Part shown: positions 5,678 to 27,780 of the stretch, in pieces
How the letters are laid out: every line of letters starts with the position of its first letter
Position numbering within the stretch: the first letter of the stretch is position 1
IMG/VR virus record: IMGVR_UViG_2568526722_000005
Strand: one strand, 5' to 3'
Origin: a virus
Taxonomy: Duplodnaviria; Heunggongvirae; Uroviricota; Caudoviricetes
Length of the DNA stretch: 32,531 nt
Made by a program: the position numbers and the translations under genes
The notes under the pieces: generated by a model
Told to the model about the DNA's origin: nothing
The model's input: only the letters and a program-made list of their open reading frames with translations
The model's database searches: none

Positions 5678-6240
5678 AACCTCAGTTGTTGTTTCAGTGC
5701 ATACCCCAGCTGTTTCGGCATTTCCGCAGCAATGATGCGGTCGCGGGCATCTTCAAATGCCTGTGTCAGCGGTCCGGAAAGCGGGATTTTCACCACATCA
5801 ATGGGGTAACGATTTTTGCCATCAATACGCCGCATCACATGCCAGCGACCATTCGCCAGTTGCTGAATAAACGCATCCCGGAAAAGATATTTACCCACCT
5901 TCAGCACACTGCCACGGTACTGCAGTTTTCCACCACGCCGGGCCAGTCTGACCCGGGCTGTCCCCAGCTTAATGGCGGGCAGATTGCCCCGGTTAACGCG
6001 GATCCTGGCCGTCATTTTTCCTGACGGACTGGCTTTAAACACCCGGACACGCTGACGTACCAGTTTCAGGGGGATCCCTTTCACCTGGTTATCTCCCGCA
6101 ACGGTATTCCCGGCAACCTGCCGGGTGGCAACCGAGACCGCTTTCTGTGCCACACGGTTTATCGCCCATGCGCTGGCCTGTGGCACCATACGGGTATCAA
6201 GGCTGTTCAGATTGCGGATGGCATTCTCAAGCCCCTTCAT
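5662..6240 (-). CDS. Z: Tail completion protein Z (lambda gpZ-like)
   Basis: 192-aa ORF, same length as lambda Z, at the synteny position upstream of U; overlaps the U start. Confidence 0.75.
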   Translation of the reverse strand: MKGLENAIRNLNSLDTRMVPQASAWAINRVAQKAVSVATRQVAGNTVAGDNQVKGIPLKLVRQRVRVFKASPSGKMTARIRVNRGNLPAIKLGTARVRLARRGGKLQYRGSVLKVGKYLFRDAFIQQLANGRWHVMRRIDGKNRYPIDVVKIPLSGPLTQAFEDARDRIIAAEMPKQLGYALKQQLRLWLTR

Positions 6241-12726: not shown

Positions 12727-13266
12727 CTAGAGACTCTCTCCTTCCTCATCAGGAATTAATTCAGCAGCACAAGCCTCGTAGGATTTTTCCTGAAGAGTGT
12801 ATCGCAGGTCATCAATGGCCTGCTGTACAACGCCAACGGCCTGAGGAGTCAGGGCGCAATCGCGTTCAAGAACATCCGGAATTGTCTCCAGAACCTGGAC
12901 GACAGCCTTTCTCATGGACGAATAGACGATGACTACTTCATCAACGGGGATGAGTTTTCGCTGCTCCTTTTCCAGCTTGATCCTTTCATTTTCCGACTGG
13001 TACCAGTCCTTTCTCTCTTTCGGCTCCATACGGGATGGATCATGAACAGAGTCTGCTGCCTCATGCTTCACACTAAACAGGGCAGGCCCGACATGCTGCA
13101 GGGCGTAAACGGGGTTCCCCCTGACAGTCGCAGCCACAGGAGTGTTGGCCGCGAGGAGCCGTTTTTTTACTGTGTCCCGGTGAAGCCCAAAGGCCTCGGC
13201 GATTTTAAAAACACTCCAGTAATAAGCATCACCGATCCCGCTCACATTTGACATAAGCAACTCCAT
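12727..13266 (-). CDS. Terminase small subunit (Nu1/NohA-like)
   Basis: 179-aa ORF immediately upstream of TerL with an N-terminal HTH-like segment; size as lambda Nu1 (181 aa). Confidence 0.8.
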   Translation of the reverse strand: MELLMSNVSGIGDAYYWSVFKIAEAFGLHRDTVKKRLLAANTPVAATVRGNPVYALQHVGPALFSVKHEAADSVHDPSRMEPKERKDWYQSENERIKLEKEQRKLIPVDEVVIVYSSMRKAVVQVLETIPDVLERDCALTPQAVGVVQQAIDDLRYTLQEKSYEACAAELIPDEEGESL

Positions 13267-13394
13267 CTGGCAGGTGAAAATCAGGTTTATTTATATATTT
13301 CAATTAATTGCAAACTAGTCTAATGACAGGGAGAAAAAAATATTGTACAGCTGAAAAGAGAAATAACTTTTAATTATCAATAAATTACCAAACA

Positions 13395-13480
13395 TGCTGC
13401 CGCCGCCATGGAAATGCAAAAACTAGCCTTTTTCCGCGACGCTCCCGCCCCGTGGCAGGGCCCCCCACTGGGAGGACCCG
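13395..13480 (-). other. Candidate cos region; cosN-like core about 13439..13450
   Basis: About 170 bp upstream of the Nu1 start, minus strand reads ACGGGGCGGGAGCGTCGCGG, close to lambda ACGGGGCGGCGACCTCGCGG (recalled); flanked on the Nu1 side by an AT-rich stretch (13280..13390) as expected for cosB/IHF sites. Confidence 0.45.
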
Positions 13481-13816
13481 ACAGCCTGACAACCGTGACG
13501 AGCATCTGTAACAGAGCTTTACATAATGGCATGGGGATAATTCAGAAGGACATCACAGCATGCCCACACAAATTAGTGTGAGTGTCCTGTCTCTTACTAC
13601 GCGCAGGACTGACGAGCATGAGGGGAAAATACGAGAACCGAAATGCCTTATCTTCAGAAATGCAGCCGGCATCCGAACTGGACGATATTGTAAATTCACC
13701 TAAATACGAGGCATTGCTGTAGTTGAATTGCATTGCTGTATTAGCCTGACAGTGACAGAATACGATATTGACTCTGTCACTTGTGAAATGGTCAGAATGG
13801 TTAGCAGTTATGGTGA

Positions 13817-14023
13817 TCAGTCAACCACCAGGGAATAATCCTTCGTATTCTTATCGTGCTTTACTAACGCGGCCTCAATTGCCCTGAATGCTTCCAGAGA
13901 CACTTGATGTTCTATACATGCAATTACAACATCCGGGTAACCCATCGAAATGGTGCTATTAAGCATAGTTTTTACACGAACCTGCTCCTGGGAGGGGGCA
14001 TCAGTGTATTGATCTTTATGCAT
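13817..14023 (-). CDS. Hypothetical small protein, 68 aa
   Basis: ORF with GGAG Shine-Dalgarno about 9 nt upstream; lies between cos and the gnsB-like gene. Confidence 0.35.
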
Positions 14024-14318
14024 TTTGTCGCTCCATGCGTTTGCTCTTCACTTACGGCTAAAAATATAACGTCAAATCACTCAGCATGAAAGAGTGAAAG
14101 ATTCAGCGCGTTTCCCTTACATAATCTGTCGTTTGTATTCTCTTCAGGCATACCGAAAAGACTAGGTATTGTCACACAACCAATACCATCGACAATCGAG
14201 ATTTATACCTATTCGGTAATGTTTAAATATAACAAAACCCCGTAAAAACGAGGTTTATGGGTAATTTGTATTGTTGAATAGCATCTGATGAGAAATTGAT
14301 GCTAATGCTATAAACAGA

Positions 14319-14492
14319 CTAGATTAAATCAATCTTGATATCATAGCTTTCAAGACCAGTCATTTTTTCCCGTGCAGTAAACTGGATACTGGTAACTTCT
14401 TTCCCGGTCTTTTTCTTAAGCTCAATGATTTTTTTTGTTATATATTCAGAAATATCTGCTTCTGTTTTTGTTTTTAACTCTTCAATGTTCAT
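14319..14492 (-). CDS. gnsB: GnsA/GnsB-family small protein, 57 aa
   Basis: MNIEELKTKTEADISEYITKKIIELKKKTGKEVTSIQFTAREKMTGLESYDIKIDLI closely resembles K-12 GnsB; AGAGGA Shine-Dalgarno upstream. Confidence 0.7.
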   Translation of the reverse strand: MNIEELKTKTEADISEYITKKIIELKKKTGKEVTSIQFTAREKMTGLESYDIKIDLI

Positions 14493-14664
14493 CATTTCCT
14501 CTTTTAGTCTGTTATGACTTTCCTGGTACACAGTAGTGTCAATTATATGGAGCAAGCGTATAAAAGATAAGATGAAACATCGCAATAATCAACATACGAC
14601 GGTCTAAATTTCACACAAACAGATAAAGATGATTATCATTTATTATCAATGCATTAGAATCAAA

Positions 14665-14895
14665 TCAATTCAAGAGTCTCATTGCTGCTTCCAGAATTTC
14701 TTCTGAAGTTACATGCCGATCCGCTGCTACATAAATGACTTTATGATCTCCGGTCAGAGATGGAAACCCTGCAGCCATTACAGTGAGGTGTGTTGTTTCG
14801 CCATTTGGATATTCACGCATGATGGTGTTAACTCCGGTCATCACTGGCACTACCATTGCTGGTTCAGAGTTAAAAAAAACTATTATTTTTTTCAT
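14665..14895 (-). CDS. Hypothetical small protein, 76 aa
   Basis: ORF MKKIIVFFNSEPAMVVPVMTGV... between the csp gene and gnsB-like; start chosen at internal Met. Confidence 0.35.
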   Translation of the reverse strand: MKKIIVFFNSEPAMVVPVMTGVNTIMREYPNGETTHLTVMAAGFPSLTGDHKVIYVAADRHVTSEEILEAAMRLLN

Positions 14896-14939
14896 AATGT
14901 TACCGTAATATGTGAGTATCCATCGACTAGACACTAAGC

Positions 14940-14960
14940 AAAAAAGCTCCCGAAGGAGCC
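14940..14960 (-). terminator. Intrinsic terminator downstream of the csp gene
   Basis: Minus strand reads GGCTCC-TTCG-GGAGC followed by TTTTTT. Confidence 0.5.
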
Positions 14961-15166
14961 TTCATTTTCACTTTCTTAAATCTAACGACAGACGGCTAAC
15001 ATTTAAGTATTGTGAAATATTATCAAATGTAATCATCATTGATTTACAAAAGATACATTTTGCCCCGAAAGGATTCCTGTCAGAAACATCAAAAGATGAT
15101 GTTCTATACTGAGAACCATGGCAACACGGGCATCTAAAGTGAATATGGTTTGTAATATTTTCTACC

Positions 15167-15382
15167 TCAAAGTGCCACAACATGAACAGCCGCGGGGCCT
15201 TTAGGTCCGTTCTCAATACCAAATTCGACTTCCTGATTCTCAGTTAACGTTTTGAAATCGTTGCTCTGAATAGCTGAGAAATGGACAAACACATCTTTGC
15301 TACCATCTTTCGGCGTGATGAAACCAAAACCTTTTTCAGGGTTAAACCATTTCACTAAACCAGTCATTTTGTTAGACATCAT
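15167..15382 (-). CDS. Cold-shock protein, CspA family (CspB/CspI-like), prophage-borne
   Basis: [70 protein letters not shown] contains the RNP1/RNP2 motifs (KGFGFI, VFVHF); about 350 nt AT-rich upstream region consistent with a long csp 5' UTR. Confidence 0.9.
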
Positions 15383-15741
15383 TATTACCTTTTGAAGAAG
15401 TTAGCCCTTGGGCAGAATGGTCCGAAAAAAATATCAGAGAGAAAAACCAACAAGGAAATCTCAAGAGGTACAAATAATAAAATTATAACAATGACTGCTT
15501 CAGATAATTTTGTAACAAACCAGAACACCATTAACGCATGATTAACCAACCATAGCAAGGATTACTTTTGTAAAGAAAAACACACGAATGAAACAATAGC
15601 TTTATTTATTAATAAAACGTGTCATTCTGTCTAATGACCTTTTATCTTACCCTTAAGATTTCAAGGATTTTGACTCATGGAAGAGTCCTTTTTATTTAAA
15701 TTTCACATTCAGCGCTAAAAATAATCCGATTTAATATTAAT

Positions 15742-16769
<1,028 letters not shown>

Positions 16770-16896: not shown

Positions 16897-17193
16897 ATGA
16901 ACGGTATAGATCCATTCAAACCAATCAGTAAGCAACTTGATGTGGTATTACCACAACTGACAAAACACAACGACCTTCTGGATAAAGTGTTGCCTTTTTA
17001 TATTGCTGTTACCGCAAAATTATCAGGTAAAACTCGAGAAGAGGTTCTCAAATATAACATGCTGGCTTTAGAAACAATTTTTGGCTCAGAAAAAGCGGGA
17101 AAATCACCCAAAGAGCTGGCAGAATCTCAATTTGCTTATATGACAAATATAAGAGTATCCGAAATCTTTGATAAGCTACCAGACATTGAATAA
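16897..17193 (+). CDS. Hypothetical 98-aa protein; opposite-strand moron inside the lysis cassette
   Basis: AT-rich ORF convergent with the lysis genes, followed by its own intrinsic terminator; no similarity I recognise. Confidence 0.5.
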   Translation: MNGIDPFKPISKQLDVVLPQLTKHNDLLDKVLPFYIAVTAKLSGKTREEVLKYNMLALETIFGSEKAGKSPKELAESQFAYMTNIRVSEIFDKLPDIE

Positions 17194-17200
17194 TTTCTAA

Positions 17201-17228
17201 GCGGCAGTAATGCCGCTTTATATTTTTT
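17201..17228 (+). terminator. Intrinsic terminator for the 98-aa moron ORF
   Basis: GCGGCA-GTAA-TGCCGC followed by TTTATATTTTTT directly after the ORF stop. Confidence 0.55.
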
Positions 17229-17436
17229 CAGCCAAATCTCTCAAGAACTGTTTGGCATGTTTTACCGCAGTAACTTCATAATAATCCAAACCAGCTCCTT
17301 CAAGTCGCTCAAGGTTGATGTTCAGATCAAAAATTTCACCGGCAAAACGTTCTTTGTCCTGTAACGTTAAGATTACCGTAACTTTATTCTCAAAATTGCG
17401 GGTCCCTTTCACAATCAGTTCATAGTTTTTAGTCAT
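17218..17436 (-). CDS. Small conserved protein between holin and endolysin (YdfR-like by position)
   Basis: 72-aa ORF 4 nt downstream of the holin stop, same strand; occupies the position of ydfR in the K-12 Qin lysis cassette. Confidence 0.45.
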   Translation of the reverse strand: MTKNYELIVKGTRNFENKVTVILTLQDKERFAGEIFDLNINLERLEGAGLDYYEVTAVKHAKQFLRDLAEKI

Positions 17437-17440
17437 TGTC

Positions 17441-17656
17441 TTACTCTCCTCTCGCAGCCTTACGCCTGTCTTCTTTAATCTTGAAATAAAGGTTTGTCAG
17501 ATACGTCAGCATGCCAAATACCAGACTACCCAATACACCTATTGCCGCCCACTGTGAGGGTGTGACTTTATCGAGCAACTGTAAAAACCAGTAGCCAGCA
17601 CTGCCTGCAGAGGTGCTGTAGGCGATGCCCGTTGTTAACTTATCCATGGATTTCAT
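17441..17656 (-). CDS. Class II holin of phage 21 S type (pinholin) with dual-start motif
   Basis: 71 aa, [71 protein letters not shown], near-identical to S21 as I recall it; M-K-S-M gives the antiholin/holin start pair. Confidence 0.9.
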
Positions 17657-17937
17657 AGCCTCACCTCCGCAGATAACGGATGGTGTACACGGTTTGGTTC
17701 GAAGAAGGAAAGAAAGTAGGAAAGTTCTTTAAGTGATCGGTCGTACTCATCTATCTTTCATACTTACTCTCAACTATCAAAAGTACAGGATTTATTATGA
17801 AGTTATGGCCTGTGTTGACTGGCATTGCACTCTCTTTCACTCTTATAGCATGTAAGGCCCCGACACCACCTAAAGGTGTGCAGCCGATTACAAATTTTGA
17901 CGCCAACTGATCCTACCCACGTAATATGGACACAGGC

Positions 17938-18804
17938 CTAAGCGAGGTTCTTGTTTTCAAATTGTTCCGGACTGAGGCCGCCACACCAACTGTGCCGCCG
18001 CCACCGATTGTAATCACATTCGATATAATTAAACACCGTTGCCCGCATTATTTCCCGGCTGATAAAGTGTTCTCCATGGATACATTCCACTTTCAGCGAA
18101 TGAAAGAAGCTTTCCACGCAGGCATTATCGTAGCAGCAACCTTTTGCGCTCATACTTCCACGCAGATTATGCCGCTTCAGTTGCGCCTGATAATCTGCTG
18201 AACAGTACTGGCCTCCACGGTCCGTGTGAACGATAACGTTCCGGGGCCTCTTACGCCGCCACAGCGCCATCTGCAGGGCATCGCAGGCCAGTTGCGCCGT
18301 CATGCGTGGCGACATTGACCAGCCAATAACGGCACGTGACCACAGGTCAATGACCACTGCCAGATACAGCCAGCCTTCATCTGTACGTAAGTACGTGATG
18401 TCTCCTGCCCACTTCTGGTTCGGGCCACTGGCGTAAAAATCCTGCTCCAACAGATTTTCTGACACAGGCAGGCCGTGTGCGCGGTAGCTGACCGGGCTGA
18501 ACTTCCGGGAGGCCTTTGCCCTCAGTCCCTGACGGCGCAGGCTTGCCGCCACGGTTTTTACGTTAAAGGGGTAACCCTGAGCACGCAGTTCATCCGTCAG
18601 GCGTGGGGCACCGTAACGCTGTTTTGACCGGGTAAAAGCCGCGAGGACAACGCTGTCGCAGTGTTGGCGGAACTGCTGACGCGTGCTTATCCTTGTCCGC
18701 CGCTGACACCACGTATACCAGCCGCTGCGGGCCACCCGGAGCACGCGGCACATTGCTTTGATGCTGAACTCAGCCTGATGTTTTTCAATAAAGACATACT
18801 TCAT
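17938..18804 (-). CDS. insF: IS3 transposase OrfB (InsF)
   Basis: 288-aa [35 protein letters not shown]... recognised as IS3 InsF, with the DDE integrase-like core. Confidence 0.95.
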
Positions 18805-19100
18805 TTCAGGCGCTTCGCGAAGTATGTCGCGGCCTTTTGGAGGATAGCCAGCTCTTCATCCCGTTCTGCCAGCTGGCGTTTGAGACGTGCAATCTCGGTA
18901 GACATCTCCAGTTCACGTTCAGAAGACGTCTGCTGATTTTGCTGTTTACTGCGCCAGTTGTAGAGTTGTGATTCATACAGGCTGAGTTCACGGGCTGCGG
19001 CAGTAACACCGATGCGTTCAGCAAGCTTCAGGGCTTCACTGCGAAATTCAGGCGAATGCTGTTTACGGGGTTTTTTACTGGTTGATACTGTTTTTGTCAT
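18801..19100 (-). CDS. insE: IS3 OrfA (InsE), HTH protein; overlaps OrfB for frameshift fusion
   Basis: [53 protein letters not shown]... recognised as IS3 InsE. Confidence 0.9.
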
Positions 19101-19610
19101 GTGAGTCACCTCTGACTGAGAGTTTACTCACTTAGCCGCGTGTCCACTATTGCTGGGTAAGATCAAACCGCTACCTCGGAAAATGGTATGAAATAGCTCG
19201 CCTCGAGAACTGGTTCGAACGTGGTCTGGAACAGGTCAGCGCTACTTATGAAAAACGGAACGACGGAGGGATTCGCGTACTTAACCGTGGATACGATCCA
19301 ACGAAAAACAAATGGAGCGAGAGCGAAGGTAAAGCATACTTTACTGGAGATACTAAAACTGCAGCGTTGAAAGTTTCGTTTTTTGGCCCCTTCTATGGTG
19401 GCTATAATGTAATCAAGCTGGATGATGAGTATAAGTATGCTCTTGTCAGTGGTCCGAACAGAGAATACCTATGGATTCTGGCAAGGACCCAAACTATTCC
19501 AGATAATGTAAAAGCAGACTATGTGCGTACCGCTCAAAAGTTGGGATTCAATGTCAATGAACTATTATGGGTTAAACAATAAAATCCCCACCCGAAATGA
19601 TACTTATTAG

Positions 19611-19638
19611 AAAAAAACCAGCCTTTGGGGAGGCTGGC
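19611..19638 (-). terminator. Intrinsic terminator downstream of Q (tR'-like)
   Basis: Minus strand reads CCAGCCT-CCCCAA-AGGCTGG followed by TTTTTTT; about 100 bp downstream of the Q stop. Confidence 0.6.
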
Positions 19639-19737
19639 TAAATCAGGAAACAAGCTGTTATATGATAATAACTACGTTGCGATTCCAACATTTAAAATGT
19701 TAGACTAATGAAAATCAGACAGCAACTTTTCCTTTAA
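19639..19737 (-). promoter_or_regulatory. Candidate late promoter PR' with qut region
   Basis: Between Q stop and terminator: minus-strand TTGGAA (19683..19688), 17-nt spacer, TCATAT (19660..19665); layout matches the short PR'-tR' leaders of phage 82/QuuD-type Q systems. Confidence 0.4.
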
Positions 19738-20115
19738 TTATTTCGAACAATCAGCATCCATCTCCAATCGGAGATCCAACACCATCAGCATGCCCTCCAC
19801 TACGCCCTCAGCTTTCTGGAGCATCCTGCCAACCCAACAATCAGATCGCCCATGCTTACGTGCAAGCGCCATAAAAGTCATGCCGCCGACATAATAGTCC
19901 ACCAATAAATCATGTAAATCGCTGTTGTTTTTTTTCAGGCGAGCCATACATTCACAAATGATCATCGCGTCATCGTCACAGCATTGCGGACGAGATCTTA
20001 CTTTTGAAGGAATTAATCCCTTAAAACCGGCGGCAATGGACGACCAGGTCACATCTTCATGATTATTAGCCGCCCATGCCCCCCAACGCTCAAGAACCAT
20101 CTGAATATCACGCAT
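19738..20115 (-). CDS. Late-gene antiterminator Q (QuuD/phage 82-type)
   Basis: [76 protein letters not shown]... closely resembles K-12 QuuD. Confidence 0.85.
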
Positions 20116-21996: not shown

Positions 21997-22152
21997 TTAC
22001 TCCTCAGGTTCGTAAGCTGTGAAGACAGCGACCTCCGTCTGGCCGGTTCGGATTCGTACCTCGCAGAGGTCTTTCCTCGTTACCAGTGCCGTCACTATGA
22101 CGGTTAAACAGATGACGATCAGGGCGATTAACATCGCCTTTTGCTGCTTCAT
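21997..22152 (-). CDS. hokD: Hok/Gef-family membrane toxin (HokD/RelF-like), 51 aa
   Basis: MKQQKAMLIALIVICLTVIVTALVTRKDLCEVRIRTGQTEVAVFTAYEPEE matches K-12 HokD as I recall it; AGGAGAAG Shine-Dalgarno; the longer ORF to 22209 is an in-frame upstream extension. Confidence 0.9.
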   Translation of the reverse strand: MKQQKAMLIALIVICLTVIVTALVTRKDLCEVRIRTGQTEVAVFTAYEPEE

Positions 22153-22409
22153 AGCCTGCTTCTCCTTGCCTTTCGGCACGTAAGAGGCTAACCTACATGT
22201 GTCTAGCATGAAATTGGCCTCAGATTAATGTTAAGCGTCTTGCAGGACGCGTAATGTTAACTGGGGCTTTTCTCTACCTGCCGTTGGTGTTCGTGCCCGA
22301 GGCAGATAGCCTCAAGCACCCGCAGTCATTCTACTTAACTAAGATTTCCCCGCAAACCGTTTTGTCCAGCACAGTAAATATCCAACTAAACCAATGGAGT
22401 TCGCTGTAT

Positions 22410-27723: not shown

Positions 27724-27780
27724 TTTCTGGTGACGTTTGGCGGTATCAGTTTTACTCCGTGACTGCTCTGCCGCCGTTTT
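27724..27780 (+). ncRNA. dicF: DicF small regulatory RNA
   Basis: TTTCTGGTGACGTTTGGCGGTATCAGTTTTACTCCGTGACTGCTCTGCCGCC followed by GTTTTT matches the K-12 DicF sRNA as I recall it; located between the ydfABC-like genes and dicB as in Qin; preceded by a highly structured region. Confidence 0.85.

What the first reader, a model, noticed from the sequence alone, without database searches (positions are those of the whole stretch)
17797..19582. IS3 has split a prophage-borne blc-like lipocalin moron between Q/tR' and the holin
A Blc-type outer-membrane lipocalin gene sits in the classic moron slot between the Q-dependent late promoter and the holin (where stx or nmpC sit in other lambdoid phages). 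It is cut after codon 37 by a complete IS3 with a clean 3-bp AAC duplication, and rejoining the halves restores an intact reading frame. The intact ends and clean duplication suggest a fairly recent event. The IS also sits in the late-operon leader, co-oriented with late transcription, so it could be polar on holin/endolysin expression.
Basis: partly seen in the sequence, partly recalled or inferred. Interest (0 to 1): 0.55.

Follow-up and report, generated by a model that had tools for sequence, protein, structure and literature searches.

The report
IS3-split lipocalin gene in E. coli prophage
A common jumping gene (IS3) has cleanly knocked out an accessory outer-membrane lipocalin gene in a Qin-like E. 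coli prophage; this is ordinary, but the same short stretch of the prophage has been hit by IS3 dozens of separate times in other strains.

Summary
A complete 1258-bp IS3 (17908-19165) with a 3-bp AAC duplication splits a 174-codon Blc-type lipocalin gene after codon 37.

The interpretation needs three corrections:
- The lipocalin lies on the strand opposite Q, holin, endolysin and Rz. It is an antisense, self-contained accessory gene, not Q-driven cargo like stx.
- It abuts the holin only because this lineage also lost 2322 bp (a ybgA-like gene and an AraC-type HTH gene) at 17714|17715. Viable phages and about 1100 E. coli genomes carry Q - lipocalin - ybgA - HTH - holin.
- Polarity on lysis genes is unlikely, because Q-modified polymerase ignores terminators and none is predicted inside IS3.

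The prophage lipocalin is already published as a lambda moron, and similar IS3-split alleles are annotated as pseudogenes in RefSeq.

The unexpected part is recurrence. I counted at least 20 independent IS3 insertions at 17 positions in this 525-bp gene, plus about 9 in the neighbouring ybgA-like gene and about 11 in Q, against 1 in the endolysin. Codon 37 was hit in both orientations, and once by IS2. Sites share a weak G-NN-[TSD]-NN-C signature. The cause of the regional clustering is unresolved.

The parts
17797..17907 (+). Lipocalin gene, 5' fragment: codons 1-37, covering the lipoprotein signal peptide (lipobox L-I-A-C, Cys19) plus 18 mature residues. As it stands the ORF stops at the TGA formed by the first bases of IS3 (17908-17910).
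   Evidence: The 37-aa product is called as a gene on 22 public contigs.
17905..17907 (.). Left copy of the 3-bp target-site duplication (AAC, codon 37).
17908..19165 (-). Complete IS3, 1258 bp. The transposase reads on the - strand, so IRL is at the 19165 end and IRR at the 17908 end. orfA is 19100-18801 and orfB is 18804-17938. The slippery A-AAA-G lies at about 18838-18834 on the - strand.
   Evidence: Pfam hits HTH_Tnp_1, HTH_21 and rve. 1258/1258 identity to RefSeq-annotated IS3 copies with programmed frameshift.
19166..19168 (.). Right copy of the target-site duplication (AAC).
19169..19582 (+). Lipocalin gene, 3' fragment: codons 38-174 plus the stop codon. It has no in-frame start at its 5' end.
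19606..19639 (-). tR'-like intrinsic terminator of the late leader: a 9-bp GC-rich hairpin followed by a T-run. It lies 24 nt beyond the lipocalin stop codon, so the same hairpin may also end the lipocalin transcript.
   Evidence: Pattern scan. The hairpin is present in both the MFE and the centroid fold.
19738..20115 (-). Antiterminator Q gene (Phage_antitermQ family, a distant relative of Q21).
   Evidence: Pfam 8e-51. PDB 6p18 Q protein 5e-9. RefSeq homologue WP_001204787.1, 378 nt.
17714..17715 (.). Junction of a 2322-bp deletion relative to all related prophages and phages. The lost segment held a ybgA-like gene (DUF523/DUF1722, '2-thiouracil desulfurase family') and an AraC-type HTH gene. 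There is no microhomology at the junction.
   Evidence: The junction is absent from 5426 complete E. coli genomes. A contig from SRR28255153 is 100% identical on both sides, carries the same IS3 junction and still has the segment.
17441..17656 (-). Class II holin (phage 21 S type), the first lysis gene downstream of the insertion on the late strand.
   Evidence: Pfam Phage_holin_2_1 2.3e-34.
15742..16769 (-). Endolysin (16236-16769) and Rz-like spanin (15742-16239). Both ORFs are intact.
   Evidence: Pfam Phage_lysozyme and DUF2514. 99.96% identity to strain M23917.

Best explanation
The segment is the late-regulatory and accessory region of a Qin-like lambdoid prophage of E. coli. The closest relatives sit next to rspB/ynfA and still carry terminase, portal, capsid and tail genes.

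Just downstream of Q and its tR'-like terminator, on the opposite strand, lies a self-contained lysogenic-conversion gene. It encodes an outer-membrane lipoprotein lipocalin, 63% identical to chromosomal Blc.

An IS3 copy inserted after codon 37 by the usual IS3-family copy-out/paste-in route and duplicated 3 bp (AAC). What remains can encode only a signal peptide plus 18 residues, and the 3' fragment has no start codon, so this is a null allele.

The same lineage later lost the neighbouring 2322 bp (the ybgA-like and HTH genes), which brought the broken lipocalin next to the holin.

The insertion probably has little effect on lysis-gene expression after induction. Q-modified polymerase reads through terminators, and IS3 carries no predicted terminator.

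The insertion landed here because this stretch, and this exact nucleotide, is a preferred target of IS3-family elements. The window's site, GCC[AAC]CGC, fits the weak palindromic G-NN-[TSD]-NN-C preference seen across insertions.

Shown: the anatomy, the restoration of the frame, the strand layout, the deletion, and the recurrence. Inferred: loss of function, the order of events, the lack of polarity, and target preference as the cause.
For: - Anatomy and restoration.
- Domain and fold family.
- IS3 identity.
- Strand layout, Q, holin, endolysin, terminator.
- Intact gene in 1045-1140 of 5426 complete E. coli genomes, including BL21 and strain C.
- Intact gene in viable phages with the module Q - lipocalin (antisense) - ybgA - HTH - holin.
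- Published as a moron in more than 50% of 19 infant-gut Lambdaviruses: PMC6969025.
- Deletion. Likely precursor allele.
- Recurrence: at least 20 junction-defined IS3 events at 17 positions in the gene.
- Positions 31, 111 and 172 were hit in both orientations (P about 0.005-0.007 under uniform choice).
- Codon 37 also carries IS3 in the opposite orientation on other prophage backgrounds, and an IS2 end.
- Motif: G at -3 in 14/21 unique sites and C at +3 in 16/21 (p about 1e-6 each). On sites outside the set used to derive it, 9/17 half-sites fit (p = 0.004).
- Relatives integrated beside rspB/ynfA with full structural genes.
Against: - No expression data exist: the lipocalin promoter is not identified. 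The sigma-70 scan finds nothing upstream of the ATG on the + strand.
- Loss of function and lack of polarity are both inferred.
- The order 'IS3 first, deletion second' rests on one read-level contig. An independent hit at this hot spot could mimic it.
- The G..C motif is as frequent in the endolysin, which is rarely hit, as in the lipocalin. It therefore cannot explain the regional clustering.
- Insertion counts come from anchor-plus-IS-end BLAST queries. These miss rearranged or divergent loci and are not normalised by phylogeny.
Confidence: 0.85

Rival explanations
1. The IS3 insertion is polar on the late operon and was selected because it silences holin/endolysin. It would be a step in domesticating the prophage, and the many IS3 hits in Q, the lipocalin and ybgA in other strains would be convergent silencing of lysis.
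For: - IS3 lies between the late promoter and the holin, co-oriented with late transcription.
- Q itself, which is required for late expression, is hit about 11 times.
- The Rz gene is hit in 13P460A.
- The Q-lipocalin-ybgA stretch is hit far more often than the endolysin.
Against: - Insertions in the lipocalin occur about equally in both orientations: 9 A and 11 B.
- No terminator-like site is predicted in IS3 on either strand.
- Q-modified polymerase is terminator-resistant (established knowledge).
- If blocking lysis were the target, holin and endolysin should be hit as often, yet the endolysin has 1 event.
- Exact-site reuse and a shared flanking motif point to a mutational preference.
Confidence: 0.12
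2. The lipocalin is late-operon cargo, expressed from the Q-dependent promoter on induction as stx is. The IS3 would then interrupt a phage-regulated gene.
For: Position alone: it lies between Q/tR' and the holin.
Against: - The gene is on the opposite strand from Q, holin, endolysin and Rz, both here and in viable phages.
- Late transcription would produce its antisense RNA.
Confidence: 0.02
3. The clustering of IS3 in this region is only apparent. It would reflect neutral tolerance of insertions in dispensable prophage DNA plus sampling of clonal genomes, not a true target preference.
For: - Prophage accessory genes are dispensable.
- Several insertion alleles are shared by many near-identical genomes, for example position 375.
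- My counts are not corrected for phylogeny.
Against: - Events were counted by distinct junctions, not by genomes.
- Three positions were reused in opposite orientations, which homologous recombination between IS copies cannot produce.
- IS2 sits at the same nucleotide.
- The equally dispensable endolysin segment, present in 3911 genomes, has 1 event.
- IS3 is a low-activity element in mutation-accumulation lines: 10 of 758 new insertions (PMC5009759).
Confidence: 0.2

Closest known systems
Chromosomal Blc of E. coli (outer-membrane lipoprotein lipocalin; PDB 1QWD, 2ACO, 3MBT)
   Same: - Full-length Lipocalin_2 domain.
- Ungapped alignment at 62.6% identity.
- Lipoprotein signal peptide with the Cys at the same place, followed by the PTPP(K/R)GV motif.
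   Different: - Phage-borne paralogue, 174 aa.
- Sits antisense inside a late-operon leader.
- Regulation is unknown.
- Insertionally inactivated here.
blc moron of temperate Lambdaviruses from infant-gut E. coli (Mathieu et al. 2020, PMC6969025); phages 1H12, Lambda_ev series, IdasGreatGrand
   Same: The same gene at 96-97% protein identity, in the same place and orientation next to a Q-like gene.
   Different: Those copies are intact and are followed by the ybgA-like and HTH genes. The window's copy is split by IS3, and the two neighbouring genes are deleted.
IS3 of E. coli (IS3 family, IS3 group; insE/insF in K-12)
   Same: - 1258 bp with TG..CA ends and imperfect inverted repeats.
- orfA/orfB with a -1 frameshift.
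- HTH plus DDE (rve) domains.
- 3-bp target duplication.
   Different: No difference in the element itself. Only its location is particular.
nmpC::IS5 in the DLP12 prophage of E. coli K-12 (recalled from memory, not tested here)
   Same: An accessory outer-membrane-protein gene lying between the Q gene and the holin of a cryptic lambdoid prophage, broken by an insertion sequence.
   Different: - A different gene (a porin) and a different IS.
- As I recall it, nmpC is co-oriented with the late genes, whereas this lipocalin is antisense.

Membership tests
IS3 (IS3 family insertion sequence) | Length of about 1258 bp with terminal 5'-TG...CA-3' and imperfect terminal inverted repeats | tested here: met
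   17908-19165 is 1258 bp, running TGATCC...GATCA. 29 of the first 45 end positions match.
IS3 (IS3 family insertion sequence) | Two overlapping ORFs (orfA with an HTH, orfB with a DDE/rve domain) joined by a programmed -1 frameshift | tested here: met
   - orfA 19100-18801 hits HTH_Tnp_1; orfB 18804-17938 hits HTH_21 and rve.
- An identical copy is annotated 'programmed frameshift' in RefSeq.
- An A-AAA-G motif is visible in the overlap. Its role as the slip site is from memory.
IS3 (IS3 family insertion sequence) | 3-bp target-site duplication | tested here: met
   AAC on both sides. 3-bp duplications were found at all 17 other insertions in the Q-holin module where both flanks mapped to the empty site, and at 5 more examined later.
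IS3 (IS3 family insertion sequence) | Near-identity to the ISfinder IS3 reference | not testable with these tools
   ISfinder is not available. The proxy is 100% identity over 1258 bp to copies that RefSeq names IS3.
Blc-type bacterial lipocalin | Complete lipocalin beta-barrel domain (Pfam Lipocalin_2) once the two halves are rejoined | tested here: met
   Residues 35-174 cover profile positions 2-146 of 146, E = 7.5e-43. Ungapped alignment to PDB 3mbt, E = 8e-67.
Blc-type bacterial lipocalin | Lipoprotein signal peptide with a lipobox cysteine | tested here: met
   Read directly from the sequence: MKLWPVLTGIALSFTLIAC|K, with L-I-A-C at residues 16-19. No dedicated signal-peptide predictor was run.
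Blc-type bacterial lipocalin | Outer-membrane location, lipid or lysophospholipid binding, stationary-phase (RpoS) expression | not testable with these tools
   These need experiments. No sigma-70-like promoter was found upstream.
Moron (autonomous accessory transcription unit in a prophage) | Gene dispensable for the phage, present in some relatives and absent in others, inserted between conserved phage genes | tested here: met
   - Carried by viable phages and by about 21% of E. coli genomes.
- Listed as a moron in PMC6969025.
- GC content 44% against 48.9% for the window.
Moron (autonomous accessory transcription unit in a prophage) | Own promoter and terminator, expressed from the repressed prophage | tested here: inconclusive
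   The opposite strand orientation implies an own promoter, but none was identified. The only nearby hairpin has its T-run on the other strand.
Q-dependent late-operon cargo (stx-like) | Co-oriented with, and transcribed from, the Q-dependent late promoter | tested here: not met
   The lipocalin is on the + strand. Q, holin, endolysin and Rz are on the - strand. Phages 1H12 and IdasGreatGrand show the same layout.

The most novel reading that the evidence does not exclude
The Q - lipocalin - ybgA stretch of Qin-like and lambda-like E. coli prophages is a genuine hot spot for IS3-family transposition.

It would be defined by some local DNA property beyond the weak G-NN-[TSD]-NN-C preference. 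Candidates are bending by the A-tracts that flank codon 37, or converging transcription. Single nucleotides are reused in both orientations and by IS2 as well as IS3.

If so, IS3 would be a recurrent, semi-targeted agent of prophage decay at the late-gene switch, and the segment would serve as a natural target for studying how IS3-family transposases choose sites.
Probability: 0.4. Interest if true: 0.45.

Novelty: already known. Interest (0 to 1): 0.22.

Why it matters
The finding itself is a routine pseudogene: a known insertion sequence in a known, published prophage accessory gene. It matters mainly for annotation. The two lipocalin fragments should be joined as one disrupted gene, and the gene should not be read as late-operon cargo.

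The wider pattern could matter more. A low-activity element has hit roughly 2.4 kb around the Q gene and its accessory genes at least 40 separate times across sequenced E. coli, sometimes at the same base. If this reflects target choice, it gives a defined natural substrate for studying IS3-family site selection. If it reflects selection, it bears on how hosts disarm prophages.

Tried and rejected
1. Orientation bias. The first junction search found 25 genomes with IS3 in the lipocalin, all in the window's orientation, which suggested a bias. The mirror-image query found 10 more in the opposite orientation. The final count is 9 A and 11 B events, so there is no bias.

2. Source and spread of the allele. 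No complete E. coli genome and no GTDB species representative has the exact junction. An exact-protein look-up of the 37-aa stub found it.

3. Microhomology or an IS end at the 2322-bp deletion junction. None was found. The deletion ends 193 bp from IS3, so it is not a simple IS-adjacent deletion.

4. Whether the G..C target motif explains the regional clustering. It does not: motif density is 0.059 in the lipocalin and 0.071 in the endolysin.

5. Literature on an IS3 target consensus or a prophage hot spot. Nothing specific turned up in the papers I opened. ISfinder and older subscription papers could not be checked.

6. My first guess about the 'Lambda_ev' phage records was wrong. I took them for laboratory recombinants, but they are the infant-gut isolates of PMC6969025.

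7. Rfam scan of the whole window. Nothing was found in 17400-19750.

Full report
**1. What is in the sequence**

The + strand reads ...TTTGACGCCAAC | TGATCCTACCCACG ... GGGTAAGATCA | AACCGCTACCTC....
- The inserted element is 17908-19165, 1258 bp, with TG...CA ends and imperfect terminal inverted repeats.
- It is flanked by AAC at 17905-17907 and at 19166-19168.
- On the - strand it carries orfA (19100-18801, HTH_Tnp_1) and orfB (18804-17938, HTH_21 plus rve).
- It is identical at all 1258 positions to copies in E. coli M23917 and J3 that RefSeq annotates as 'IS3-like element IS3 family transposase, programmed frameshift'.

Joining 17797-17907 to 19169-19582 gives a 174-codon ORF.
- It covers Pfam Lipocalin_2 end to end (7.5e-43).
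- It aligns without gaps to E. coli Blc (PDB 3mbt, 8e-67; 97/155 identical).
- It starts with a lipoprotein signal peptide, ...FTLIAC|K.

Its suggested test deletion (17908..19158) is not: it leaves seven IS bases and shifts the frame. The correct excision is 1261 bp.

**2. Where the window comes from, and whether the junction is real**

An exact-sequence look-up of the 37-aa N-terminal stub found it on 22 public contigs.
- One is NCBI GCA_000492275.1 scaffold KI535409.1. It is 100% identical to the window with the same coordinates, so the window is the first 32.5 kb of that scaffold.
- Read-level assemblies SRR850816 and SRR28255153 carry the same lipocalin|IS3 junction. It is therefore not a scaffolding artefact.
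- No complete E. coli genome in RefSeq (0 of 5426) and no GTDB species representative has this exact junction.

**3. Context**

The window is a Qin-like lambdoid prophage.
- Its closest relatives (99.5% over 25 kb) are in strains EC20-72C-1 and 13P460A.
- In 13P460A it lies beside rspB-rspA-ynfA and has integrase, exonuclease, dicB, the O-like replication gene, hokD, rem, ydfU, Q, lysis genes, cspI, gnsB, terminase, portal, a ClpP/capsid fusion and tail genes.
- Rfam finds the expected DicF, sok and cspA-type leader elsewhere in the window, and nothing in the region of interest.

**4. Strand layout: the main correction**

Q (19738-20115), the holin (17441-17656), a DUF1327 gene, the endolysin and Rz are all on the - strand.
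- Between the Q stop and the lipocalin stop, on the - strand, lies a 9-bp GC-rich hairpin followed by a T-run (19639-19606). It is found by the pattern scan and kept in both the MFE and centroid folds.
- This hairpin is in the position expected for tR'.
- Q is a distant relative of Q21 (PDB 6p18, 5e-9).

The lipocalin is on the + strand. It is therefore antisense to late transcription and convergent with Q.

This is not peculiar to the window. In the viable phages 1H12 (Jouyvirus) and IdasGreatGrand the order is Q, lipocalin on the opposite strand, a ybgA-like gene, an HTH/hypothetical gene, holin. The gene occupies the stx/nmpC position, but it cannot be expressed from the Q-dependent promoter. 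The ybgA-like and HTH genes are the ones co-oriented with the late operon.

**5.

Relative to every relative examined, the window lacks 2322 bp between 17714 and 17715.
- The lost segment held the ybgA-like gene (DUF523/DUF1722, '2-thiouracil desulfurase family') and an AraC-type HTH gene.
- This is why the lipocalin appears to sit directly beside the holin.
- The junction has no microhomology and lies 193 bp from IS3.
- It occurs in none of 5426 complete genomes.

A contig from SRR28255153 is 100% identical to the window on both sides, has the same IS3 junction in the same orientation, and still carries the 2322 bp. The simplest order is IS3 insertion first, deletion second. An independent hit at this hot spot cannot be excluded.

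**6. How common the intact gene is, and whether it is known**

- The rejoined 762-bp segment matches 1140 of 5426 complete E. coli genomes, 1045 of them over at least 80% in one piece. These include BL21 and strain C.
- Two genomes are 100% identical to the rejoined segment.
- Mathieu et al. 2020 list 'blc, a bacterial lipocalin' among morons present in more than half of 19 temperate Lambdaviruses from infant-gut E. coli (PMC6969025). Those are the Lambda_ev/1H12 records found here.
- RefSeq already annotates IS3-split copies as 'lipocalin family protein, incomplete'.

The elements and the kind of event are therefore known.

**7. Likely consequences**

The split allele can encode only the signal peptide plus 18 residues, and the 3' part has no start codon. 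It is a null allele (inference).

Polarity on the lysis genes is nonetheless unlikely.
- No terminator-like site is predicted inside IS3 on either strand.
- Q-modified polymerase reads through terminators (established knowledge of lambdoid Q proteins).
- This was not tested.

**8. Recurrence: the unexpected part**

I built queries from a short anchor plus one or both IS3 ends, then read the junctions in fetched loci. This gave at least 20 junction-defined IS3 insertions at 17 positions in or just upstream of this 525-bp gene.
- Window's orientation: gene positions 11, 31, 65, 111 (the window), 172, 238, 375, 406, 502.
- Opposite orientation: -29, 31, 85, 111, 134, 144, 153, 172, 214, 216, 439.
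- Wherever both flanks survive, the duplication is 3 bp.

Positions 31, 111 and 172 were each hit in both orientations. Homologous recombination between IS copies cannot produce this, because it preserves which IS end abuts a given flank. Under uniform choice, three such coincidences have P of about 0.005-0.007.

Codon 37 itself carries several different insertions:
- IS3 in the opposite orientation in strain ES2, with an adjacent deletion.
- IS3 in the opposite orientation in GCA_045610745.1 on a 95-97% diverged prophage background, with both halves kept.
- An end I recognise from memory as IS2 in SRR35246386.

The same query design gave these counts in neighbouring and control segments:

| Segment searched | Distinct IS3 positions |
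|---|---|
| 605 bp of the ybgA-like gene | about 9 |
| Q plus the start of ydfU | about 11 |
| Endolysin | 1 |

The endolysin segment is present in 3911 genomes, although mostly at 90-95% identity. Other strains have IS3 in the HTH-ybgA spacer, IS3 in Rz, IS5 between the lipocalin and Q, or two inverted IS3 copies bracketing the lipocalin.

IS3 is a low-activity element in mutation-accumulation lines: 10 of 758 new insertions (PMC5009759).

**9. A target signature**

Aligning the insertion sites on their duplications shows G three bases before the duplication and C three bases after it.
- G at -3: 14 of 21 unique sites, against a 18% background.
- C at +3: 16 of 21 unique sites, against a 23% background.
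- Each has p of about 1e-6.
- On IS3 ends outside the set of sites used to derive the logo, 9 of 17 half-sites fit, p = 0.004.
- The window's site, GCC[AAC]CGC, fits.

This is a weak palindromic preference. It is as frequent in the endolysin (0.071 per position) as in the lipocalin (0.059). It can help explain exact-site reuse but not the regional excess.

Codon 37 is flanked on both sides, at about 13-14 bp, by A-tracts (AAATTTT and GGAAAAT). Whether bending matters is speculation. I could not check ISfinder or the older literature for a published IS3 target consensus.

**10. Verdict**

The finding is an ordinary, already-understood kind of event: a null allele of a published prophage accessory gene, made by a textbook IS.

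The cause of that clustering (target preference, selection to disarm the prophage, or both) is open, and my counts are not phylogenetically corrected.

Noticed in passing
window 17714|17715: A 2322-bp deletion relative to all related prophages and phages removes a ybgA-like gene (DUF523/DUF1722, '2-thiouracil desulfurase family') and an AraC-type HTH gene. There is no microhomology at the junction, and the junction is absent from 5426 complete E. coli genomes. A read-level contig (SRR28255153) that is 100% identical on both sides and has the same IS3 junction still carries the segment.
   Followed up: yes
window 17797-19582 and homologous loci L001-L038: At least 20 independent IS3 insertions lie at 17 positions in this 525-bp lipocalin gene across public E. 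coli genomes. A further ~9 lie in 605 bp of the neighbouring ybgA-like gene and ~11 in Q plus the start of ydfU, against 1 in the endolysin. Positions 31, 111 and 172 of the gene were hit in both orientations.
   Followed up: partly
window 17899-17907 / 19166-19174 (GCC[AAC]CGC) and 21 other unique sites in the fetched loci: IS3 insertion sites show a weak palindromic flank preference: G at -3 and C at +3 of the 3-bp duplication (14/21 and 16/21 unique sites). On sites outside the discovery set, 9/17 half-sites fit. I could not check whether this is already documented for IS3.
   Followed up: partly
L030 (SRR35246386 contig) position 6111/6112, equivalent to window 17907/17908: A different element abuts codon 37 at exactly the same nucleotide. 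Its end reads TAGACTGGCCCCCTGAATCTCCAGACA, which I recognise from memory as an IS2 terminus. Two further contigs on lambda-like backgrounds (L031, L032) break at the same base.
   Followed up: partly
L033 (E. coli ATCC 8739) and L034 (strain E4): Two inverted IS3 copies, one in the ybgA-like gene and one in Q, bracket an intact lipocalin gene and form a composite-transposon-like unit. I did not test whether it moves.
   Followed up: no
L007 16542-17799 (strain 13P460A); L003 (strain EC20-72C-1): The two closest relatives of the window's prophage (99.5% identical) keep the lipocalin intact but carry their own IS hits in the same late region. 13P460A has IS3 in Rz. EC20-72C-1 has IS3 beside the HTH gene plus IS5 between the lipocalin and Q.
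   Followed up: partly
window 16897-17193 (+) and 17218-17436 (-): A 98-aa ORF with no Pfam match lies on the + strand between the DUF1327 gene and the endolysin. Here the DUF1327 gene is 72 aa, whereas other Qin-like prophages without this ORF have a 103-104 aa ydfR. This is a small mosaic replacement inside the lysis cassette.
   Followed up: no
window 15121-15536 (-), 22147-22321 (-), 27725-27776 (+): Rfam matches above the gathering score: a cspA-type thermoregulator leader (upstream of cspI), the sok antitoxin RNA (with hokD), and the DicF sRNA. All are expected for a Qin-like prophage.
   Followed up: no
window 13266-15742: A cold-shock and toxin cluster (gnsB, ynfN, ymcF/ynfQ, cspI, by homology to annotated relatives) lies between the Rz gene and the terminase small-subunit region, on the late strand. 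It is a second block of accessory genes in the late operon.
   Followed up: no
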